A stretch of 64,000 nt of DNA, taken from contig CAZPYM010000002.1 in assembly GCA_964590105.1 (NCBI GenBank), positions 154,697 to 218,696 on the forward strand, in the 5' to 3' direction. Under the pieces are notes generated by a model. It saw only the letters and a list, made by a program, of their open reading frames with translations, was not told the DNA's origin and did no database searches. Both the position numbers and the translations under genes were made by a program. Each line of letters opens with the position of its first letter. The first letter of the stretch is position 1. Shown piece by piece: positions 6,381 through 13,225 of this stretch. The stretch is from an uncultured Gammaproteobacteria bacterium. Its GTDB lineage: Bacteria; Patescibacteriota; Patescibacteriia; UBA11705; JABHMO01.

Positions 6381-6782
6381 ATGTTTTATGCCCAGATAGC
6401 TTTTTTTTCGGTATTCTCCCTGTTCGCCGCGTGCGGCAGTTCCGCGAACAAGTCGGAAAGCAAAAAAGACGTTGACCCGGTGTTGCGGCAAACAGCTGAT
6501 GAAGCGTCGTGCGATCGGTTTGCCGAGGGCGAAGTCAAAGTGTTGAGGCGCGCTCAGACGCTCATGTGCCTGAACAATGGCGACGCCGGTGTTGTGCTGG
6601 AGCTGGCTTCAGAGCCGAGCGAGGACAGCGGCACGAAGATTGTTTACGATCTGCCTGCGCGTGGTTCGCAAAAATTCACCTTGCCCTTTATTGACGGATT
6701 TACAGTTAATGATATTTACGCTCGCCTTGATCGCGGCGAATGGCGCAAATTGTGCCGGGGAAGTAATCCGGCCGAAGAATAA
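6381..6782 (+). CDS. Small lipoprotein with 4 Cys. High-GC cassette.
   Basis: Start at the internal Met preceded by GAGGAGGGAAAAATG. Lipobox LFAAC-G. GC visibly higher than the backbone. No family recognised. Confidence 0.55.
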   Translation: MFYAQIAFFSVFSLFAACGSSANKSESKKDVDPVLRQTADEASCDRFAEGEVKVLRRAQTLMCLNNGDAGVVLELASEPSEDSGTKIVYDLPARGSQKFTLPFIDGFTVNDIYARLDRGEWRKLCRGSNPAEE

Positions 6783-6818
6783 ACTTATAGTCGATTGATC
6801 GCAATATCCGTAATACAA

Positions 6819-6845
6819 CTTCCGAACGCATTCGGGAGTTTTTTG
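6819..6845 (+). terminator. Intrinsic terminator cttCCGAAcgcaTTCGGgagTTTTTT. Near-identical copy at 13196..13225.
   Basis: 5-6 bp GC stem plus U-run. ~30 nt nearly identical to the second copy. Confidence 0.6.
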
Positions 6846-6869
6846 TTGAATAAAGTATTTCTGCCCGGC

Positions 6870-6898
6870 TTGACAGCGCAGATTTTTTCACTTATACT
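6870..6898 (+). promoter_or_regulatory. Sigma70-type promoter TTGACA-17-TATACT upstream of the radical-SAM gene.
   Basis: TTGACA at 6870-6875, 17-nt spacer, TATACT at 6893-6898. SD GAAGGAGG 6 nt before ATG at 6962. Confidence 0.55.
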
Positions 6899-6961
6899 GT
6901 TTTATTCTGATTGCACTTTGACAAGTCGATTCATTAACCTTTGGCAGAAGGAGGATAGGCA

Positions 6962-8326
6962 ATGCCGAGGAAGCAGCAGTTTGAAGTTGACGGCGTGAGG
7001 CACGCCACTATCAATGGTCATCGCTTTCATTTGCGGTGGACTGATCCGGGGAAAGATAATTTTCTCTGGATTGACGGCAAGCAGCCGCCATTGATACTGG
7101 ATCAGACAGCGGCAGATTTTGTCGCGCATTTGATTGACGCCATGTGGCTATTTCAGACCGGCGCGGGAGACAATTCTGCCCAAGTGATTAGACATGTTGT
7201 AGACAAAATGTATGACTGCTACGGGCGATCATCGATCATTCGAAAAAAGCGGGTCACAAGGGCCAGGATTGAAGCGGATTTCCAGCGGATTTTCGGCATG
7301 CTTATGGCGGTGGCCGACAGCGGTTGTCCGTATGAATCCGGGCTTGATTCCAAGGAGATCAATTATGGCGTCTGGGCGGCGCCGGCGCGCATGGATCTGG
7401 CAGTGACGTATCGATGCAATCTGCAGTGTAGCAAATGCTATCTTGGCGAGCGTAGCTCGCCGGATATGCCATTCGAATCATGGTTGGAAGTCTACAAAAG
7501 GCTTTGGGAAATCGGCATTTCACAGGTGGTGTTCACCGGAGGGGAGCCTTTGCTTCGTCCGGACATTGTGCAGTTGGTGTCCGAGGCAGACGAATTTGTC
7601 ACCGGGCTTATCACCAATGGAACAGAGCTCGCCCGGTTGGCACAGCCGTTGCGCGACGCCAGCCTGGATTATGTCCAGGTGACGATTGAATCTGCTTTCC
7701 CAACGGTTCACGATCTGATGACACAGACGCCCGGTTCATTGATGAAGACAATGGCCGGCATCAGGGCGGCGGTTGAGTGTGGATTACAGGTGGTGACCAA
7801 TACAACTCTGACAAAAGAGAATGCTGATGGTTTTTGCCGGCTTTTGCGCCAGTTAGAAGGACTCGGCGTGAAAAATGTCGCTTGCAACACGCTCATTTGC
7901 AGCGGACGCGGCACATATCATCGCATGCAGAATGGTCTTTCTGATGCAGAATTGCTCGCCGTAATCAAGCCGGCGCTGGCTGTGGCAAGAGACCTTGGTC
8001 AGAATCTGCAGTGGTATTCGCCGACCTGTTATAATCAGGGTGTGAATCCGATTGAGCTGGGCTTTGGCGTGAAGGCGTGTTCAGCCGCAGCTCACAACAT
8101 GATGGTTGGGCCGGATGGCGAAGTGTTTCCGTGCCAGTCATGGCCGAAATCGGTTGGAAACATCTTGCTGAATAGCTGGCCGGCAATCTGGGAACATCCC
8201 ACGTGCGTGGCTTTGCGCAATCACGAAATGGCGCCCGCGGCTTGCCGCGATTGCGAGCATTTGTCCGTCTGTGGCGGAGGATGCCCGCTCGACAAGGACG
8301 CGCGTCTCGGCGAGGTGAAGTCATGA
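6962..8326 (+). CDS. Radical SAM / SPASM-domain protein with ~130 aa N-terminal (RRE-like) extension. Putative peptide/protein-modifying maturase.
   Basis: CNLQCSKC (CX3CX2C, Cys152/156/159). C-terminal Cys cluster C-X2-C-X5-C-X3-C (CRDCEHLSVCGGGC) plus upstream CNTLICSG / CYNQG / CSAAAH, typical of the SPASM twitch. Stop overlaps the next start (ATGA). Confidence 0.85.
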   Translation: MPRKQQFEVDGVRHATINGHRFHLRWTDPGKDNFLWIDGKQPPLILDQTAADFVAHLIDAMWLFQTGAGDNSAQVIRHVVDKMYDCYGRSSIIRKKRVTRARIEADFQRIFGMLMAVADSGCPYESGLDSKEINYGVWAAPARMDLAVTYRCNLQCSKCYLGERSSPDMPFESWLEVYKRLWEIGISQVVFTGGEPLLRPDIVQLVSEADEFVTGLITNGTELARLAQPLRDASLDYVQVTIESAFPTVHDLMTQTPGSLMKTMAGIRAAVECGLQVVTNTTLTKENADGFCRLLRQLEGLGVKNVACNTLICSGRGTYHRMQNGLSDAELLAVIKPALAVARDLGQNLQWYSPTCYNQGVNPIELGFGVKACSAAAHNMMVGPDGEVFPCQSWPKSVGNILLNSWPAIWEHPTCVALRNHEMAPAACRDCEHLSVCGGGCPLDKDARLGEVKS

Positions 8327-9294
8327 ACAAGAGCATACTGGCGCTGCTGGCTTTTTGCCTGGCCCTGCCTGCGACAAAAGCGTTGGCCGGCGATACCGGC
8401 ACATACGAAATTCTGGATTACAGGGTCAATCTGACGCCGCGCGCTGACGGCACGGTGGATATTGACTATTATCAGAAATGGGCAGTGACCGGCGGGCACA
8501 TTCCATGGATTACGGTCGGCCTGCCGAACAGCGATTACGAAATCAAGAAAAGTTCAGGCAATGCCGCCTCCATCAAGCCGGCCAATAGCGGCGGTTGGAG
8601 CGGTGTTCGTCTGGATCTAGACCGGGATTATCAGCCGGACGAGACATTTGAGGTGAACTTTTCCATTGTTCAGACCAAGTTGTTCTGGGCTGATGAAGAA
8701 AAGTATTACCTCGCATACACTCCGGGCTGGTATGATCAGGCTCCGGTTCATAACTTGGACGTAACGGTACGCTTTTTTGCCAAGCTGGAATCGGTCACGG
8801 CCGAGCCGGAACCAAGCAAAAATGGCGATGAAACTTTGAGCTGGCAAACTTCGCTGGGCAAGGGCCAGAAGTTCAGCTTTGAGATTTCTTTTCCAAAGGC
8901 AGTGTTTGAGCAACCGATTTCGGAAGAAAATCTGAAAGATACTGGCGGAGTCGGTTGGTTGATCATCCTCATTATCTTCATTCTGCTAGTTGTCGTTATT
9001 ATTTTCCTCGCCGCCAGCGGAGTTTTTGGCGGGGGCGGATTTGGCGGCGGGGATGATGACGACGGGTACAGCGGTGGTAGCATTTTTTACGGTGGCGGCA
9101 GCGGAGGCGGATCTGGCGGTGGCGGCCGTTCAGCCGGCGGCGGAGGTGGCTTTGGCGGACGAACCAGTTCGTGCGCCTGTGCCTGTGTATCCTGCGCCTG
9201 TGCTTGCGCTTGCGCCGGCGGCGGCGGGGCTGGTTGCGACCGCAAAGCCAAGCATCTGTGTCCTGTTTGCAATCAAACAAGGGCAGAGAGCTAG
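8323..9294 (+). CDS. DUF2207-like exported membrane protein with Gly-rich tail extended by a (Cys-Ala)n repeat and a CxxC end.
   Basis: The start overlaps the rSAM stop (ATGA). Signal peptide MNKSILALLAFCLALPATKALA. ~200 aa ectodomain resembling the DUF2207 N-domain (TYEILDYRVNLTPRADGTVDIDYY...). One TM (WLIILIIFILLVVVIIFLAA). Tail GGGGFGGGDDDDGYSGG...GGGGGFGGRTSSCACACVSCACACACAGGGGAGCDRKAKHLCPVCNQTRAES. Confidence 0.7.
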   Translation: MNKSILALLAFCLALPATKALAGDTGTYEILDYRVNLTPRADGTVDIDYYQKWAVTGGHIPWITVGLPNSDYEIKKSSGNAASIKPANSGGWSGVRLDLDRDYQPDETFEVNFSIVQTKLFWADEEKYYLAYTPGWYDQAPVHNLDVTVRFFAKLESVTAEPEPSKNGDETLSWQTSLGKGQKFSFEISFPKAVFEQPISEENLKDTGGVGWLIILIIFILLVVVIIFLAASGVFGGGGFGGGDDDDGYSGGSIFYGGGSGGGSGGGGRSAGGGGGFGGRTSSCACACVSCACACACAGGGGAGCDRKAKHLCPVCNQTRAES

Positions 9295-9367
9295 CCGGAT
9301 TACGGCTAAATAGAAAACAATTCCCTGGACCTAGTTAAGTTCAGGGAGTTTTATTTGTATGGGACAC

Positions 9368-9396
9368 TTGACAAATTATAAGTTTCTTTATATGAT
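9368..9396 (+). promoter_or_regulatory. Sigma70-type promoter TTGACA-17-TATGAT.
   Basis: Consensus hexamers with a 17-nt spacer, ~50 nt upstream of ATG 9445 (SD AAGGGAGG). Confidence 0.5.
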
Positions 9397-9444
9397 TTTA
9401 TAATTACCCGAACATTGACAACTGACAAATTAAGGGAGGGTTTA

Positions 9445-10647
9445 ATGCAAAAGCTTAGTGTTGTGCTATTGCTGATTGCGGGCGCTGTTTTTACCGGCTG
9501 CAGTGAACAGCTGGGGGCGCTCGGAGGAACGTTTGCGCGTTCTTTGCTTTTCGTGCTTCCGTTTATCGCAGTCATGATTGGCATTATTTTTGCAATGAAC
9601 AAATGGATCGTTGATAGCCGCGGCGCAACAAATGAAAGACTTTGTTCAGCTGTCGGCGTTGTTAGTTTTCCGGTTTTGTTTTTCGTAGCCTTTTACTTGT
9701 ACTGGGGCTGGAGCTGGTGGGTCATCGGCGCCGCTTTTTTGCTCGGCGGGCCAATCGGCTGGTTCAGCTATACGCTCGATGAGCTTTTGGTAGAATTTTG
9801 GGAAAATCGAGTTGTTACCCTGCCGGGACTTGTCGGGTTGATTCTTGGAGGCGCGGTGATTGTCTCGTTTTTTACCGGCATTTGGCTGGAAGGCGATATG
9901 TATGTAACGAACAAGGCCTGTTCAGCTCGGGCAGTGGTTGAAAGATATAGCGAGACCTGCACCAAGGACGATGATGGGGTTCGTAGCTGTTCCGATTCCT
10001 GGGATTACTACTATCATGTTGACCGAATTGCTGATGGTTGGCAATTGCCTTCCCTGGAAAAAGGAAGAGATTACCAGCTCGGTCGCGGTGATTATGGCCG
10101 AGAAGACCGAGTTAGATTAGAATCATATTTTCTGATTGGCGGGCAGTTTTATTCTGAAGAACAAAAGCAATGGACAGAGTTTCGTTGGCTTGTTCTGAAA
10201 AAAAAGATCCCGGTGGAGTTGAGGCAGGTGCAACACATCCGCAGCAACTTTTACGGGAATCCGGCTGAAAACGCAGGCGCTGTTAGCGAGCCGGCGCCAT
10301 TGCCGGAGAGTGTGGCGGCAAGGGTGTTGACCGGTGATGATCTGCCGCCCGGATCAACAACAATGAAAGCCATTTCAATTGTTTGGGATACGGTTAAGCT
10401 ACTTTTTTCAGAAGAAGAATATAGGGGAATATTGTATATCTTCTTATGTGTTTTTGCATTAATTGGAACGCTGGCATTTTTTGTGCCGGTAACAAGGCCT
10501 TCAGTAGCGGCATTTACGAGTTGTTTTTTCATAATCGCTCTAATTGCAGTAATGATTATTGCGGCCAGAACCGGCAGTCTTGGTTCCGGCAGACGCCGGC
10601 GTTCTTCCGGCGGCGGCGGATTTGGTGGAAGAACGTTTACGCGTTAG
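9445..10647 (+). CDS. Polytopic membrane lipoprotein with Gly-rich C-terminal tail (GGGGFGGRT). Possible paralogous partner of the DUF2207-like protein.
   Basis: Start at the internal Met (MQKLSVVLLLIAGAVFTGC lipobox) with SD AAGGGAGGGTTTAATG. Predicted 3-4 N-terminal TMs, a ~200 aa soluble domain and 2 C-terminal TMs. Ends ...RRRRSSGGGGFGGRTFTR, the same motif as the preceding protein. Confidence 0.6.
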   Translation: MQKLSVVLLLIAGAVFTGCSEQLGALGGTFARSLLFVLPFIAVMIGIIFAMNKWIVDSRGATNERLCSAVGVVSFPVLFFVAFYLYWGWSWWVIGAAFLLGGPIGWFSYTLDELLVEFWENRVVTLPGLVGLILGGAVIVSFFTGIWLEGDMYVTNKACSARAVVERYSETCTKDDDGVRSCSDSWDYYYHVDRIADGWQLPSLEKGRDYQLGRGDYGREDRVRLESYFLIGGQFYSEEQKQWTEFRWLVLKKKIPVELRQVQHIRSNFYGNPAENAGAVSEPAPLPESVAARVLTGDDLPPGSTTMKAISIVWDTVKLLFSEEEYRGILYIFLCVFALIGTLAFFVPVTRPSVAAFTSCFFIIALIAVMIIAARTGSLGSGRRRRSSGGGGFGGRTFTR

Positions 10648-10657
10648 GGAGGTGATA

Positions 10658-11230
10658 ATGCGAAAAACATGTTTTCTGTTTGTCTTTTTGGCATTGCTAT
10701 TTAATGCTTGCTCTAAGGATGAGCAGGCTGATCAGCAGATGCCGGAAGCATCAAAGTACGGAGACCAAGCGCGGGTTCTCACGGGAGAGCCGGCGTTTCC
10801 GGCGCTGGAAAAAAGTTGGATTATTGACAAAGCCAATGCGGTTTCATTAGAAGTTGAAAGGACCGCCGATGCCGTTTTGCAGTCATTGCAGGACGACGGA
10901 TTGGCTGAAGTTGTTGTGTTAATTATCACAGGGGTGAAAAAGCCCGGTGACTATGCTACTCAATACGGACGTTTTCTTCAACTGGGCAAAGCAGGGCCGG
11001 CTTCGGACGGAGGAAACAGAGGCATTGTCTGGTTGGTCAGACCGGATGCTGATGAAAAAATGACCATCTCGGTTGGTCGCGGACTGCCCGGTTTTACCTC
11101 GCAGGACTATGGCGAGATTATGGACGCCGTGGGTGATTATTGTCAGTTCAACAATTATGACAAATGCGTGCAGAGACTCGCGGAAAAGACCAGTGAGGTT
11201 TTGCGCCGGCTGCAAAAAGTCAAACCCTAA
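10658..11230 (+). CDS. TPM-domain-like (DUF477/YgcG-type) lipoprotein.
   Basis: Start at the internal Met with SD GGGAGGTGATAATG. Lipobox LFNAC. Segment GIVWLVRPDADEKMTISVGRGLPGFTSQDYGEIMDAV resembles the TPM core. Family call is tentative. Confidence 0.45.
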   Translation: MRKTCFLFVFLALLFNACSKDEQADQQMPEASKYGDQARVLTGEPAFPALEKSWIIDKANAVSLEVERTADAVLQSLQDDGLAEVVVLIITGVKKPGDYATQYGRFLQLGKAGPASDGGNRGIVWLVRPDADEKMTISVGRGLPGFTSQDYGEIMDAVGDYCQFNNYDKCVQRLAEKTSEVLRRLQKVKP

Positions 11231-11252
11231 ATGCGACAAGGAGGCAAACCGC

Positions 11253-11900
11253 ATGAAAAAGGGAACAATCATTCTTCTCGCAGTGCTCGGAGTCTTCATT
11301 CTCGGCGGTGTGTCCATGTGCAGTTCTGTGGTGGGCGTGTGGAACACGCTCAACAGCAACTACCAGGGCGTGCAGGCCGGCAAATCGCACTACGGTGCGG
11401 CGCTCGACATCGTGCCGGAAAAGATCAAGGGAGTGTGGCAGCTCTCTGATCAGTATTTGGATCACGAATCCGACACATTCAAGATGGTGGCGGCGGCTAG
11501 GAGCGGACTGCTCCAATCCATCGATGGTTTCAAAAAGGCTGAGCAGGGCGGCGCTTCTGATGCGGACATGCTGAAGAATGGCCAGGGCGTCATGGACATG
11601 TTCAACAAGTTCAAGGATGCTAGCCTGGCAGTCAATGTGCAGATCGAGGCCTATCCGCAGCTTCGTGGCGCGGAAACAACCAAGACGGCCATGCGGGCAG
11701 TCGAGGAAGGCGTCAATGAAATCAAGACGGCGCTGGACGACTGGATCGCGTCCATCAAGGTGTACAATGAGTATCGCGGCAGCGCCTGGCCATCCATTCT
11801 TGGAGGATTTATGGCCAAGTTCCCGGTCGAGATTCCCTACTACGAAGCGGAAAGGACAAAGCTCAATATCGATGAGCTGAATCCAAAAAGCAACAAGTAG
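11253..11900 (+). CDS. LemA family protein.
   Basis: Start at the internal Met (MKKGTIILLAVLGVFILGG...) with SD AAGGAGG. N-terminal TM, then WNTLNSNYQGVQAGKSHYGAALDIVPEKIKGVWQL... consistent with LemA (PF04011). Family call from memory. Confidence 0.65.
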   Translation: MKKGTIILLAVLGVFILGGVSMCSSVVGVWNTLNSNYQGVQAGKSHYGAALDIVPEKIKGVWQLSDQYLDHESDTFKMVAAARSGLLQSIDGFKKAEQGGASDADMLKNGQGVMDMFNKFKDASLAVNVQIEAYPQLRGAETTKTAMRAVEEGVNEIKTALDDWIASIKVYNEYRGSAWPSILGGFMAKFPVEIPYYEAERTKLNIDELNPKSNK

Positions 11901-11996
11901 CGCCCTCGTGCGCTAAATAAAAATATCTTCCAGAGAACGTTCTGGGAGATTTTTTGTTAGACAAAGAAGCTTAATTTGAACTAAAATCGCGCGCCA

Positions 11997-12025
11997 TTGA
12001 CATTTCTATATAATTTTGCTATAGT
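11997..12025 (+). promoter_or_regulatory. Sigma70-type promoter TTGACA-17-TATAGT.
   Basis: Consensus hexamers. SD GGAGGTGGAGACATG at 12064. Confidence 0.5.
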
Positions 12026-12063
12026 TAATTGTTGTCATTTGACAATTTAACGGAGGTGGAGAC

Positions 12064-12597
12064 ATGGTTACTCTAGCAATCATTTTCGTCGTTGGGCTGT
12101 TTGGATTGGCCGCGAGCCTTTGTTATTTGTTTTTTAGCAACAGAGTACATTCGGGCGTCAGCCTGGCGATAATTTCCTTGCTTGCTTCTCTTTTGATTCT
12201 GTTATTTGCCGGCTTTAATCTGATTAGTCAGAATCTTGATCTTAAGTCGGAGGAGGAAAGTCCGCGCGTCGAGGAAGGTGAGCCAGTTGAGCTGAATCCT
12301 TCGGGTTGCGTGCTTGAATGGAAAGATTTGCGAATCGTAGGAAACTACGGCGCGATCACGGTTGCAAATAAGTCGAATGCCGACGTTGAAGTCTGGGTGT
12401 CTGCGACCGGCATGAGCCTACAGGCAAAGCTGGAACCCAAGCGCGGCATCCGTCTTCGTTCCGGCGTGAGGTTTCCGGAAACAGACATGGCCTGGACAGT
12501 GAAGCTCTCGACCGGCGAGAGCCGAAGCTTCGACTTCTTGAATTGTTTGCCGCTTGCTTGCGATCTTCAACCAGCATATGGGCTGGAACGGGAATAG
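12064..12597 (+). CDS. Hypothetical membrane-anchored protein (2 N-terminal TMs plus ~110 aa domain).
   Basis: ORF with strong SD. High GC. No recognisable family. Confidence 0.5.
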   Translation: MVTLAIIFVVGLFGLAASLCYLFFSNRVHSGVSLAIISLLASLLILLFAGFNLISQNLDLKSEEESPRVEEGEPVELNPSGCVLEWKDLRIVGNYGAITVANKSNADVEVWVSATGMSLQAKLEPKRGIRLRSGVRFPETDMAWTVKLSTGESRSFDFLNCLPLACDLQPAYGLERE

Positions 12598-12606
12598 GAG
12601 GACAAC

Positions 12607-12900
12607 ATGGGCGAAATATTCCTGCTGTGGTTTGGCCGTTTGTGCCTGCTGTTGGTAGGGCTGGCGGTTGTCTGGTGGTTCAGGCAGTCGTGCGGAGACA
12701 TTTGGTCAAGCGTTGAAGAACGGATTCCAGTTTTGGCGCTCGGCCTTTTCGCTCTGGTGATTTGCGCGCTGACCTTTGCACCGCCTCGAATCAACTATTT
12801 GAAGTATCCGCCGGTAATCAGAGCCATGAACGCGCCGGCGCCTGATCAGATCTCACGATGTCTTGAAGGGAAAATCAACATTCCGATTTGTCGGAAATAG
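12607..12900 (+). CDS. Small hypothetical membrane protein (2 TM).
   Basis: SD ATAGGAGGACAACATG. Hydrophobic segments. High GC. Confidence 0.4.
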   Translation: MGEIFLLWFGRLCLLLVGLAVVWWFRQSCGDIWSSVEERIPVLALGLFALVICALTFAPPRINYLKYPPVIRAMNAPAPDQISRCLEGKINIPICRK

Positions 12901-12910
12901 AAGGGGGCCC

Positions 12911-13180
12911 ATGGTTTCCATGTATATTACTCTTGCGTGGTTAATGATCATTGTGACTTTGTTTTTGGCTTTGGGCGCGTGGAGCTATTGGAGTGAACCG
13001 CCCGAACCGGCAAAAGCAATTTTTTGCGGATTGCTGGCGACAGCACTCCTTCTCCTGGCTGGAGTTTTCTTTGTGCGCGCGCAGAATGAGCAGAAAAAGA
13101 TAAAGGCGGCTATGCTAGAGGTGGAAGACACCGTCATCCATGAAGACCTGCTGGACGTCAAAAGCAGGCAACTTCCATAA
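12911..13180 (+). CDS. Small hypothetical membrane protein (2 TM).
   Basis: Internal Met start preceded by AAGGGGGCCCATG. Two hydrophobic helices. Confidence 0.35.
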   Translation: MVSMYITLAWLMIIVTLFLALGAWSYWSEPPEPAKAIFCGLLATALLLLAGVFFVRAQNEQKKIKAAMLEVEDTVIHEDLLDVKSRQLP

Positions 13181-13195
13181 TTCAATGAATAAAAA

Positions 13196-13225
13196 CTTCC
13201 CGAACGCATTCGGGAGTTTTTTTTG
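13196..13225 (+). terminator. Intrinsic terminator cttCCCGAAcgcaTTCGGGagTTTTTTTT. Right-hand copy of the island boundary repeat.
   Basis: Stem-loop plus U-run. Near-identical to 6819..6845. Confidence 0.6.

What the first reader, a model, noticed from the sequence alone, without database searches (positions are those of the whole stretch)
6962..8326. Radical-SAM enzyme has RiPP-maturase-like architecture (N-terminal ~150 aa extension before CX3CX2C, C-terminal SPASM)
The CX3CX2C cysteines sit at ~152/156/159, not near the N-terminus as in anSME- or PqqE-type enzymes. They are preceded by a ~130 aa domain, and RiPP recognition elements sit in that position in sactisynthases (AlbA Cys129/133/136) and ranthipeptide/QhpD-type maturases. 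The C-terminus carries the full SPASM seven-Cys pattern (CX2CX5CX3C plus upstream Cys). The combination suggests a peptide- or protein-modifying rSAM rather than a cofactor-biosynthesis enzyme.
Basis: inference. Interest (0 to 1): 0.65.

Follow-up and report, generated by a model that had tools for sequence, protein, structure and literature searches.

The report
Radical SAM maturase with cysteine-tail partner
The flagged gene is a real radical-SAM/SPASM enzyme with a peptide-maturase-like front domain, and it is always paired with a membrane protein whose inner tail carries a nearly invariant cysteine-alanine motif, which is probably what the enzyme modifies and which I found described nowhere.

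Summary
ORF 6962-8326 (+) encodes a 454-aa radical SAM/SPASM protein. CX3CX2C lies at Cys152/156/159, CX2CX5CX3C at 428-441, and a 145-aa N-terminal domain is as conserved as the catalytic core.

The AlphaFold model gives that domain a strand-strand-strand-helix-helix-helix order. Its only notable structural match is the lasso-peptide leader-binding domain TbiB1, and that match is weak. The whole model matches the peptide maturases SkfB, SuiB and CteB best.

The stronger result lies outside the finding's coordinates. The enzyme gene overlaps (ATGA) gene 8323-9294, a 323-aa single-pass membrane protein. Its cytoplasmic, glycine-rich tail ends in SCACACVSCACACACAGGGGAGCxRK..HxCPxC.

- A homologue follows the enzyme gene in 86 of 87 loci, in at least ten bacterial phyla and in Methanothrix.
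- CACACACA-GG..AGC-x-[RK]-K is invariant in 166 distinct tails, although 72 DNA versions use every synonymous codon.
- TPM and LemA genes follow in about 55% of loci. No protease or exporter is conserved.

Best reading: the enzyme modifies this tail, most likely by cysteine-based cross-links. The pairing is shown; the chemistry is inferred. Pfam, NCBIfam, PDB sequences and the searched literature do not describe the pair.

The parts
6870..6898 (+). sigma-70-like promoter (TTGACA-17-TATACT, 11/12) ahead of the rSAM gene; consensus match only
6962..8326 (+). radical SAM/SPASM enzyme, 454 aa
6962..7375 (+). family-specific N-terminal domain (aa 1-138), predicted strands 12-17, 20-25, 33-37, 40/44-46 and helices 48-64, 72-87, 100-120; RRE-like order. 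Universally conserved H14, T16, R21, H23, L24, R25, L35, W36, L46, A50, A51, I58, D106
7325..7330 (+). invariant Cys122-Pro123 in the linker between the N-terminal domain and the core; role unknown
7415..7438 (+). CX3CX2C (Cys152/156/159), the SAM-cluster motif
8078..8284 (+). SPASM region: C373-X12-G-X4-C391 and C428-X2-C431-X5-C437-X3-C441; no downstream Cys
8323..9294 (+). partner gene, 323-aa type-I membrane protein; its ATG overlaps the rSAM stop codon (tcATGAac)
8323..8391 (+). signal peptide (aa 1-23, ...ALA|GDTGTY)
8392..8949 (+). conserved extracytoplasmic domain (aa 24-209), essentially Cys-free in the family (the window copy's only Cys outside the tail is Cys12, in the signal peptide); no Pfam, NCBIfam or PDB relative
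8950..9030 (+). single transmembrane helix (about aa 210-236)
9031..9168 (+). cytoplasmic Gly-rich linker with conserved Y249-x-G-G-x-I-F-Y-G and GGGGGFGGR segments; candidate recognition ('leader-like') sequence (inference)
9169..9270 (+). Cys/Ala motif S283-CACACVSCACACACAGGGGAGC-DRK-AKH-L-CPVC316; proposed substrate site
9319..9350 (+). terminator-like hairpin (12 bp) plus T-tract closing the two-gene unit
9445..10647 (+). window-specific membrane protein (400 aa from the ATG; lipoprotein-type signal) ending in RRRRSSGGGGFGGRTFTR; absent from all other loci
10658..11230 (+). TPM-domain protein with a lipoprotein-like signal; accessory gene present in 49 of 87 loci
11250..11900 (+). LemA-family membrane protein; accessory gene present in 47 of 87 loci

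Best explanation
This is a two-gene post-translational modification module. The radical SAM/SPASM enzyme (6962-8326) is made together with a single-pass membrane protein (8323-9294). That protein has a signal peptide, an extracytoplasmic domain, one transmembrane helix and a roughly 85-aa positively charged, glycine-rich cytoplasmic tail. The tail ends in the motif SCACACVSCACACACAGGGGAGCxRK..HxCPxC.

I propose that the enzyme's N-terminal RRE-like domain docks on the variable glycine-rich or juxtamembrane part of the tail. The radical SAM core with its auxiliary clusters would then modify the invariant Cys/Ala stretch. By analogy with SkfB, CteB, AlbA and QhpD, the most likely chemistry is intramolecular Cys-sulfur-to-carbon (thioether) cross-links. 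The modified tail would stay attached to the membrane protein and would work with the extracytoplasmic TPM and LemA proteins where these are present.

Shown here: the enzyme class, the conserved N-terminal domain, the obligate gene pairing, the motif's invariance, and the topology (by hydropathy and charge). Inferred: that the tail is the substrate, that the N-terminal domain does the recognition, and the chemistry itself.
For: Enzyme class: Radical_SAM and SPASM Pfam hits with all cluster cysteines.

Architecture: the N-terminal domain is as conserved as the core. Its predicted order is strand-strand-strand-helix-helix-helix. Its top fold hit is the RRE TbiB1 bound to its leader peptide. The whole model matches SkfB, SuiB, CteB and TigE best.

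Pairing: the stop and start codons overlap as ATGA, and one promoter-like site and one terminator-like site bracket just these two genes. A tail-protein homologue lies directly downstream in 86 of 87 loci, and the one exception is a contig end. Reciprocal look-ups starting from three tail proteins all find the rSAM directly upstream.

Motif: CACACACA-GG..AGC-x-[RK]-K is invariant in 166 distinct tails. The taxa include Zixibacteria, Krumholzibacteria, Patescibacteria, Acidobacteriota, Planctomycetota, Armatimonadota, Dehalococcoidia, Bacillota, a Betaproteobacteria MAG and Methanothrix. The 72 DNA versions use all synonymous codons.

Topology: the tail has a mean net charge of +7.5 and about 10 Cys, while the ectodomain has about 0.1 Cys. 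This places the motif in the cytoplasm with the enzyme.

Co-variation: between clades with and without the GGGGFGG segment, the N-terminal domain's consensus identity is 42%, against 63-64% for the core and SPASM regions. This fits a recognition domain that tracks the variable part of the tail.
Against: No biochemical data exist, and no enzyme-tail complex model could be made. The RRE assignment rests on topology and one weak Foldseek hit (E 0.05). HMM and profile comparisons with PqqD found nothing significant.

Dense CXC repeats also resemble metal-thiolate binding sequences (my own knowledge), so the tail could bind metal or Fe-S without covalent modification. The canonical last SPASM cysteine is missing. 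No NCBIfam maturase model comes near its cut-off, so the chemistry cannot be transferred by homology. Acceptor residues typical of ranthipeptides (Asp, Asn, Thr) are absent from the invariant core.
Confidence: 0.55

Rival explanations
1. The tail is the substrate, but the chemistry is not thioether formation. Other radical SAM/SPASM reactions are possible: epimerisation of Ala or Cys, oxidation of Cys to a formylglycine-like residue, C-C cross-linking or backbone rearrangement.
For: NCBIfam hits are equally weak (55-99 bits) to families with very different chemistry: NirJ, AhbD, PqqE, ScmE, WgkB, StsB, SbtM and MftC. anSME also appears among the fold matches. The invariant Ala and Gly residues, not only Cys, suggest that the backbone or the small side chains matter.
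Against: With ten cysteines in 34 residues the tail looks most like the thioether-type substrates (SCIFF, sactipeptides; my own knowledge). The top fold matches include the thioether synthases SkfB and CteB.
Confidence: 0.17
2. The Cys/Ala tail is a metal- or iron-sulfur-binding scaffold. The rSAM enzyme would assemble, insert or remodel an inorganic or organometallic cluster on it. Alternatively, the tail would hand electrons or sulfur to the enzyme rather than being covalently modified.
For: CXC repeats with a terminal H-x-C-P-x-C knuckle resemble metal-thiolate and rubredoxin-type ligand sets (my own knowledge; motif). All carriers are anaerobe-type lineages. A NifB entry is among the weaker fold matches (7bi7).
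Against: The enzyme has a RiPP-maturase-like front domain rather than a scaffold-type architecture. The H-x-CPxC part is missing in the Bacillota loci and in part of the Dehalococcoidia loci, while the CACAC core is kept. Invariant Ala at every second position is not needed for metal binding alone.
Confidence: 0.13
3. The enzyme acts on a non-protein substrate such as a lipid, cell-envelope precursor or cofactor. The membrane protein would only anchor or regulate it.
For: By sequence the closest solved chains include BlsE, PqqE and MoaA, which (except PqqE) act on small molecules. TPM and LemA neighbours suggest an envelope function.
Against: This does not explain an invariant 25-residue Cys/Ala motif under strong purifying selection. 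It also does not explain the N-terminal domain or the better full-length fold matches to peptide maturases. No biosynthetic genes for a small molecule are conserved nearby.
Confidence: 0.08
4. It is a classical secreted RiPP: the C-terminal Cys-rich peptide is cut off the membrane protein after modification and exported.
For: The architecture is that of RiPP maturases. One Acidobacteriota locus has three tandem 'precursor' genes, as many RiPP clusters do.
Against: No peptidase or ABC exporter is conserved among 79 loci. The 'precursor' has a conserved 190-aa ectodomain and a transmembrane helix. In some genomes the motif is internal, fused upstream of a TPM domain.
Confidence: 0.04

Closest known systems
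CteB / SCIFF (ranthipeptide) and other Cys-rich-peptide rSAM/SPASM maturases such as PapB (the ACGX-repeat system is recalled from memory only)
   Same: A radical SAM/SPASM enzyme with an N-terminal RRE-type domain sits next to a gene encoding a cysteine-dense target sequence. CteB is among the fold matches (5why/5wgg).
   Different: The target here is the cytoplasmic tail of a 323-aa signal-peptide-bearing membrane protein, not a ~45-aa peptide. The motif (CACACVSCACACACAGGGGAGC) differs. No NCBIfam maturase model reaches its cut-off (about 55-99 bits against 265-725). TPM and LemA are the associated genes, and no protease or exporter is conserved.
SkfB and AlbA-type sactipeptide synthases
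   Same: SkfB is the best structural match (6efn, E 1e-15). The CX3CX2C motif is displaced about 100-150 residues from the N-terminus. Ala can be a sactionine acceptor (my own knowledge).
   Different: SkfB was aligned at 19% identity. There is no short precursor with a leader and no bacteriocin-type immunity or export genes. The SkfB NCBIfam model scores 55.7 bits against a cut-off of 300.
SuiB (streptide Lys-Trp cross-link) and TigE
   Same: Full-length fold alignments of 466-490 columns cover the N-terminal domain, the core and the SPASM region. Weak SPASM sequence matches exist.
   Different: Identity is 14%. The substrates of these enzymes are short peptides with different chemistry.
QhpD / QhpC and anSME (protein-modifying SPASM enzymes)
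   Same: The concept is the same: a SPASM enzyme modifies cysteine-containing segments of a protein that keeps its function afterwards. This comparison rests on my own knowledge.
   Different: No specific sequence relationship was found. anSME and PqqE lack the N-terminal domain. No sulfatase or amine dehydrogenase genes are nearby.
LemA / TPM (YgcG-like) envelope gene pairs
   Same: TPM (PF04536) and LemA (PF04011) genes follow the pair in the window and in about 55% of loci. The tail protein shares the TM-plus-Gly-rich-tail build, and JGI names some tail-protein homologues YgcG.
   Different: Ordinary LemA/TPM cassettes are not known to include a radical SAM enzyme or a Cys/Ala motif (my own knowledge; nothing found).

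Membership tests
Radical SAM superfamily (PF04055) | CX3CX2C cluster motif within a partial TIM-barrel core; Pfam score above the gathering cut-off | tested here: met
   Cys152/156/159; PF04055 at 78.2 bits against 29.5
SPASM subgroup (PF13186) | C-terminal CX9-15GX4C ... CX2CX5CX3C | tested here: met
   C373-X12-G386-X4-C391 and C428/431/437/441; PF13186 at 37.2 bits against 21.5
SPASM subgroup (PF13186) | seventh canonical Cys downstream of CX3C | tested here: not met
   No Cys after residue 441 in the window protein or the family consensus. Conserved Cys308 and Cys356 may substitute (inference).
RRE-dependent RiPP maturases (sacti-/ranthipeptide synthase type) | N-terminal PqqD-like RRE fold (three strands plus three helices) | tested here: inconclusive
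RRE-dependent RiPP maturases (sacti-/ranthipeptide synthase type) | adjacent short precursor peptide with leader and core | tested here: not met
   The adjacent gene encodes a 323-aa membrane protein, and the Cys motif lies in its C-terminal tail.
RRE-dependent RiPP maturases (sacti-/ranthipeptide synthase type) | thioether (S-C) cross-link formation | not testable with these tools
   Needs mass spectrometry or NMR of the co-expressed product.
Named NCBIfam rSAM/SPASM equivalogs (NirJ, AhbD, PqqE, ScmE, GeoRSP, WgkB, StsB, SbtM, MftC, SkfB) | score at or above the curated cut-off | tested here: not met
   Best is 99.3 bits against a cut-off of 515 (NirJ). All shown hits score 55-99 bits against cut-offs of 231-725.
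   A 145-aa conserved N-terminal domain is present. No pqq, sulfatase or moa genes are conserved nearby.
DUF2207 (idea for the tail protein's ectodomain) | Pfam PF09972 match | tested here: not met
   None of the 35 members scanned hit it at E <= 10 among the 25 families shown.
LemA / TPM cassette (neighbouring genes) | PF04011 and PF04536 matches above the gathering cut-off | tested here: met
   LemA 40.6 bits against 26.2; TPM 44.4 bits against 22.1

The most novel reading that the evidence does not exclude
The enzyme builds a previously unknown protein-derived structure on the cytoplasmic tail of a membrane protein. This could be a ladder of cross-linked cysteines, or a cysteine-bound metal-sulfur centre. 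It would be conserved from Patescibacteria to Methanothrix and functionally coupled to the enigmatic LemA/TPM envelope proteins. That would be a new class of post-translational modification and a first mechanistic handle on LemA/TPM cassettes.
Probability: 0.25. Interest if true: 0.85.

Novelty: new variant of a known kind. Interest (0 to 1): 0.68.

Why it matters
Radical SAM/SPASM enzymes paired with cysteine-rich targets have repeatedly yielded new chemistry. Here the target is unusually well defined. It is a 25-residue motif that does not vary across at least ten bacterial phyla and one archaeal genus, all uncultured or anaerobic lineages, including genome-reduced Patescibacteria that keep few non-essential genes.

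The target is the tail of a membrane protein, not a secreted peptide. The product is therefore more likely a built-in structural, redox or metal site than an antibiotic.

The hypothesis can be tested directly by co-expressing two genes and measuring one mass spectrum. A positive result could also give the first functional clue for the widespread LemA/TPM gene pairs.

Tried and rejected
- Pfam and NCBIfam scans of the tail protein, its C-terminal 58 residues and the enzyme's N-terminal domain gave no meaningful hit.
- I suspected the tail protein's ectodomain was DUF2207-like because of its 'Y.I..Y.V.L.P..DG.V' look. A Pfam scan of 35 members did not support this; only weak CBM_4_9 and Fn3-like hits appeared.
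- PDB sequence searches with the N-terminal profile and the tail-protein profile found nothing.
- hhalign of the N-terminal alignment against K. pneumoniae PqqD (recalled from memory, 98-99% confirmed) and against a PqqD alignment gave Prob < 1%. It did pick the beta3-alpha1 'L(N/D)xTAA' segment.
- An HMM search of the N-terminal domain over 1.84 billion representative proteins gave 36 hits. The strong ones are full-length or fragmentary members of the same family, and a few weak hits near the threshold fall in long multi-repeat proteins. No other RRE-bearing family was linked.
- A PADLOC scan gave only generic viperin-type rSAM similarity, so there is no link to a defence system.
- The window's 400-aa membrane protein is not a paralogue of the tail protein.
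- Six literature searches and one paper check found no description of the pair or the motif.

Full report
**Observation.** The ORF at 6962-8326 (+) is real. It is 454 aa and has an AGGAGG ribosome-binding site 7 nt before the ATG. CX3CX2C lies at Cys152/156/159 and CX2CX5CX3C at Cys428/431/437/441. Pfam places Radical_SAM at residues 148-296 (E 1e-21) and SPASM at 373-432 (E 3.5e-9). Nothing matches residues 1-145.

NCBIfam alignments show that these 145 residues are an extension relative to PqqE, where query residue 139 aligns to profile position 4. They occupy the place of the N-terminal domains of SkfB and StsB. Conserved Cys308 and Cys356 bring the total of conserved non-SAM-cluster cysteines to eight.

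**The family.** More than 2,500 homologues were found. The best 120 are 56-65% identical to the window protein over 90-100% of its length. They come from Desulfobacterales, Zixibacteria, Krumholzibacteria, Latescibacteria, Aminicenantes, Acidobacteriota, Planctomycetota and Patescibacteria. All are named only 'radical SAM protein'. Mean column identity in the N-terminal domain (0.77 for residues 1-60, 0.68 for 61-145) equals that of the core (0.74). No curated NCBIfam model comes near its cut-off; the best is 99 bits against 515. A scan of one genome per GTDB species added Armatimonadota, Dehalococcoidia, Bacillota, a Betaproteobacteria MAG and Methanothrix/Methanosarcinales. All of these are metagenome-assembled genomes.

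**Is the N-terminal domain an RRE?** AlphaFold2 on a 53-sequence alignment gave pLDDT 82 and pTM 0.81. It predicts strands at 12-17, 20-25, 33-37 and 44-46, then helices at 48-64, 72-87 and 100-120. The isolated domain gave the same order. That is the order of PqqD-type recognition elements.

- Foldseek of the full model against PDB ranks SkfB first (E 1e-15), then SuiB. BlsE and PqqE follow, ahead of CteB and TigE, with MoaA and anSME lower. The SuiB, CteB and TigE alignments span 460-490 columns.
- The only notable Foldseek hit of the isolated domain is TbiB1, a lasso-peptide RRE solved with its leader (E 0.05, probability 0.96, TM 0.51 on the target).
- Sequence methods give nothing. This holds for Pfam scans of 25 members, PDB sequences, NCBIfam and an HMM search of 1.84 billion representative proteins, which returned 36 hits that link to no other RRE family.
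- hhalign against PqqD aligns FLWIDGKQPPLILDQTAADFVA with ILYPEGMAKLNETAAAILE, the beta3-alpha1 junction, but without significance.

I therefore rate the RRE assignment as plausible, not established.

**The partner.** The rSAM stop codon overlaps the start of the next gene (tcATGAac). That gene (8323-9294) encodes a 323-aa protein with these parts:

- a signal peptide;
- a conserved, cysteine-free domain of about 190 aa, beginning DTGTY;
- one transmembrane helix;
- a glycine-rich stretch (YSGGSIFYG ... GGGGGFGGR);
- the ending SCACACVSCACACACAGGGGAGCDRKAKHLCPVC.

Searching the ORFs of the 87 loci then held with the window's island proteins found a homologue of this protein directly downstream of the enzyme in 86. 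The exception is a contig end. Every intact copy carries a form of the motif. In 166 distinct tails, CACACACA is invariant at all eight positions, followed by GG(1-4 residues)AGC-x-[RK]-K. About 88% continue with H-x-C-P-x-C.

The 72 distinct DNA versions of the CACACACAGG segment use every synonymous codon at every position. The conservation is therefore at the protein level and does not come from a DNA repeat. Three look-ups starting from tail proteins all found the enzyme immediately upstream.

Hydropathy and charge place the tail in the cytoplasm. The tail has a median length of 84 aa, net charge +7.5, 30% Gly and about 10 Cys. The ectodomain has about 0.1 Cys. The tail protein has no Pfam, NCBIfam or PDB-sequence relative.

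**Surroundings.** In the window the module lies in a compositional island from about 6400 to 13200. Its GC is 0.46-0.585, against about 0.40 in the flanking housekeeping genes (GroEL/GroES and others). Consensus scans show a promoter-like site at 6870-6898 and a terminator-like hairpin at 9319-9350 that bracket exactly the enzyme-tail pair. A second unit (9368-11950) carries a window-specific membrane protein, a TPM-domain protein and a LemA protein. A third (11997-13216) carries three small membrane ORFs.

TPM and LemA follow the pair in 49 and 47 of 87 loci. They are missing in the Dehalococcoidia and in some Planctomycetota loci. Some genomes fuse the tail protein to the TPM protein. Clustering the neighbours in 79 loci showed no conserved protease, exporter or second maturase.

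**Mechanism.** The enzyme class, the obligate pairing, the invariant motif and the cytoplasmic location of the motif are shown. From these I infer that the tail is the enzyme's substrate.

The N-terminal domain probably recognises the more variable part of the tail. Between clades whose tails have or lack the GGGGFGG segment, the N-terminal consensus is only 42% identical, against 63-64% for the core and SPASM parts.

The chemistry is inferred by analogy with the structurally closest enzymes. Cysteine-to-carbon thioether cross-links are most likely. The CXC repeats could instead be a metal or Fe-S ligand set, or the enzyme could do other radical chemistry. I give the substrate relationship about 0.7 and thioether chemistry about 0.3-0.35.

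**Comparison and novelty.** It works like an RRE-type rSAM/SPASM peptide maturase (CteB/SCIFF, SkfB, SuiB). It fails the membership tests for any named family: scores are far below cut-offs and there is no short leader-core precursor. Conceptually it is closer to protein-modifying SPASM enzymes such as QhpD/QhpC, but with a new target and new companions.

Searches of Pfam, NCBIfam (June 2026), PADLOC, PDB sequences and the paper library found no description of the pair or the motif. Much of the literature is not in that library, so the pair may still have been described elsewhere. I class it as a new variant of a known kind.

Noticed in passing
window 6400-13200: A compositional island (GC 0.46-0.585 against about 0.40 in the flanks) holds all nine + strand genes between housekeeping genes on the - strand. 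This suggests horizontal acquisition of the whole cassette. No tRNA gene was found in the window; integrase genes and flanking repeats were not looked for.
   Followed up: partly
window 6817-6840, 9319-9350, 11925-11950, 13197-13216: Four terminator-like hairpins divide the island into units. Each unit starts with an 11/12 sigma-70-like promoter (6870, 9368, 11997). The hairpins at 6817 and 13197 share the core TTCC(C)GAACGCATTCGGGAG, so the island may have been built from repeated modules.
   Followed up: no
window 9445-10647: A 400-aa multi-pass membrane protein with a lipoprotein-type signal ends in RRRRSSGGGGFGGRTFTR. This is the same GGGGFGGR segment that precedes the Cys/Ala motif in the tail protein, but without the cysteines. 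It has no homologue in any of the other 87 loci.
   Followed up: partly
window 12064-13180: Three small predicted membrane ORFs (177, 97 and 105 aa) form their own promoter-terminator unit at the end of the island. They have no family hits and are not conserved in other loci.
   Followed up: partly
L031:7254-10303: An Acidobacteriota MAG carries three tandem tail-protein paralogues after a single rSAM gene. Each has the full Cys/Ala motif.
   Followed up: no
P0177 (L091:5001-6515); L082:7461-9497; L086:7413-9272: These are fusions of the tail protein to the TPM protein. The Cys/Ala motif is then internal and is followed by a lipoprotein-type hydrophobic segment and the TPM domain. The motif therefore need not be C-terminal, and the fusion argues for a physical link between the tail protein and TPM.
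   Followed up: partly
L047-L074 (Dehalococcoidia loci): This clade lacks the GGGGFGG segment and the TPM/LemA genes. It has a long charged insertion after the transmembrane helix and an extra CA unit (CACACACACAGGGAAGC). Most of these loci end the tail in H-x-C-x-x-C without the proline (for example HECRTC, HRCRQC); a subset (for example L055, L059, L060) has no second Cys pair at all.
   Followed up: no
window 7325-7330 (Cys122-Pro123 of the rSAM): An invariant Cys-Pro lies in the linker between the N-terminal domain and the core. It is conserved even in the most distant family members and lies outside all known cluster motifs.
   Followed up: no
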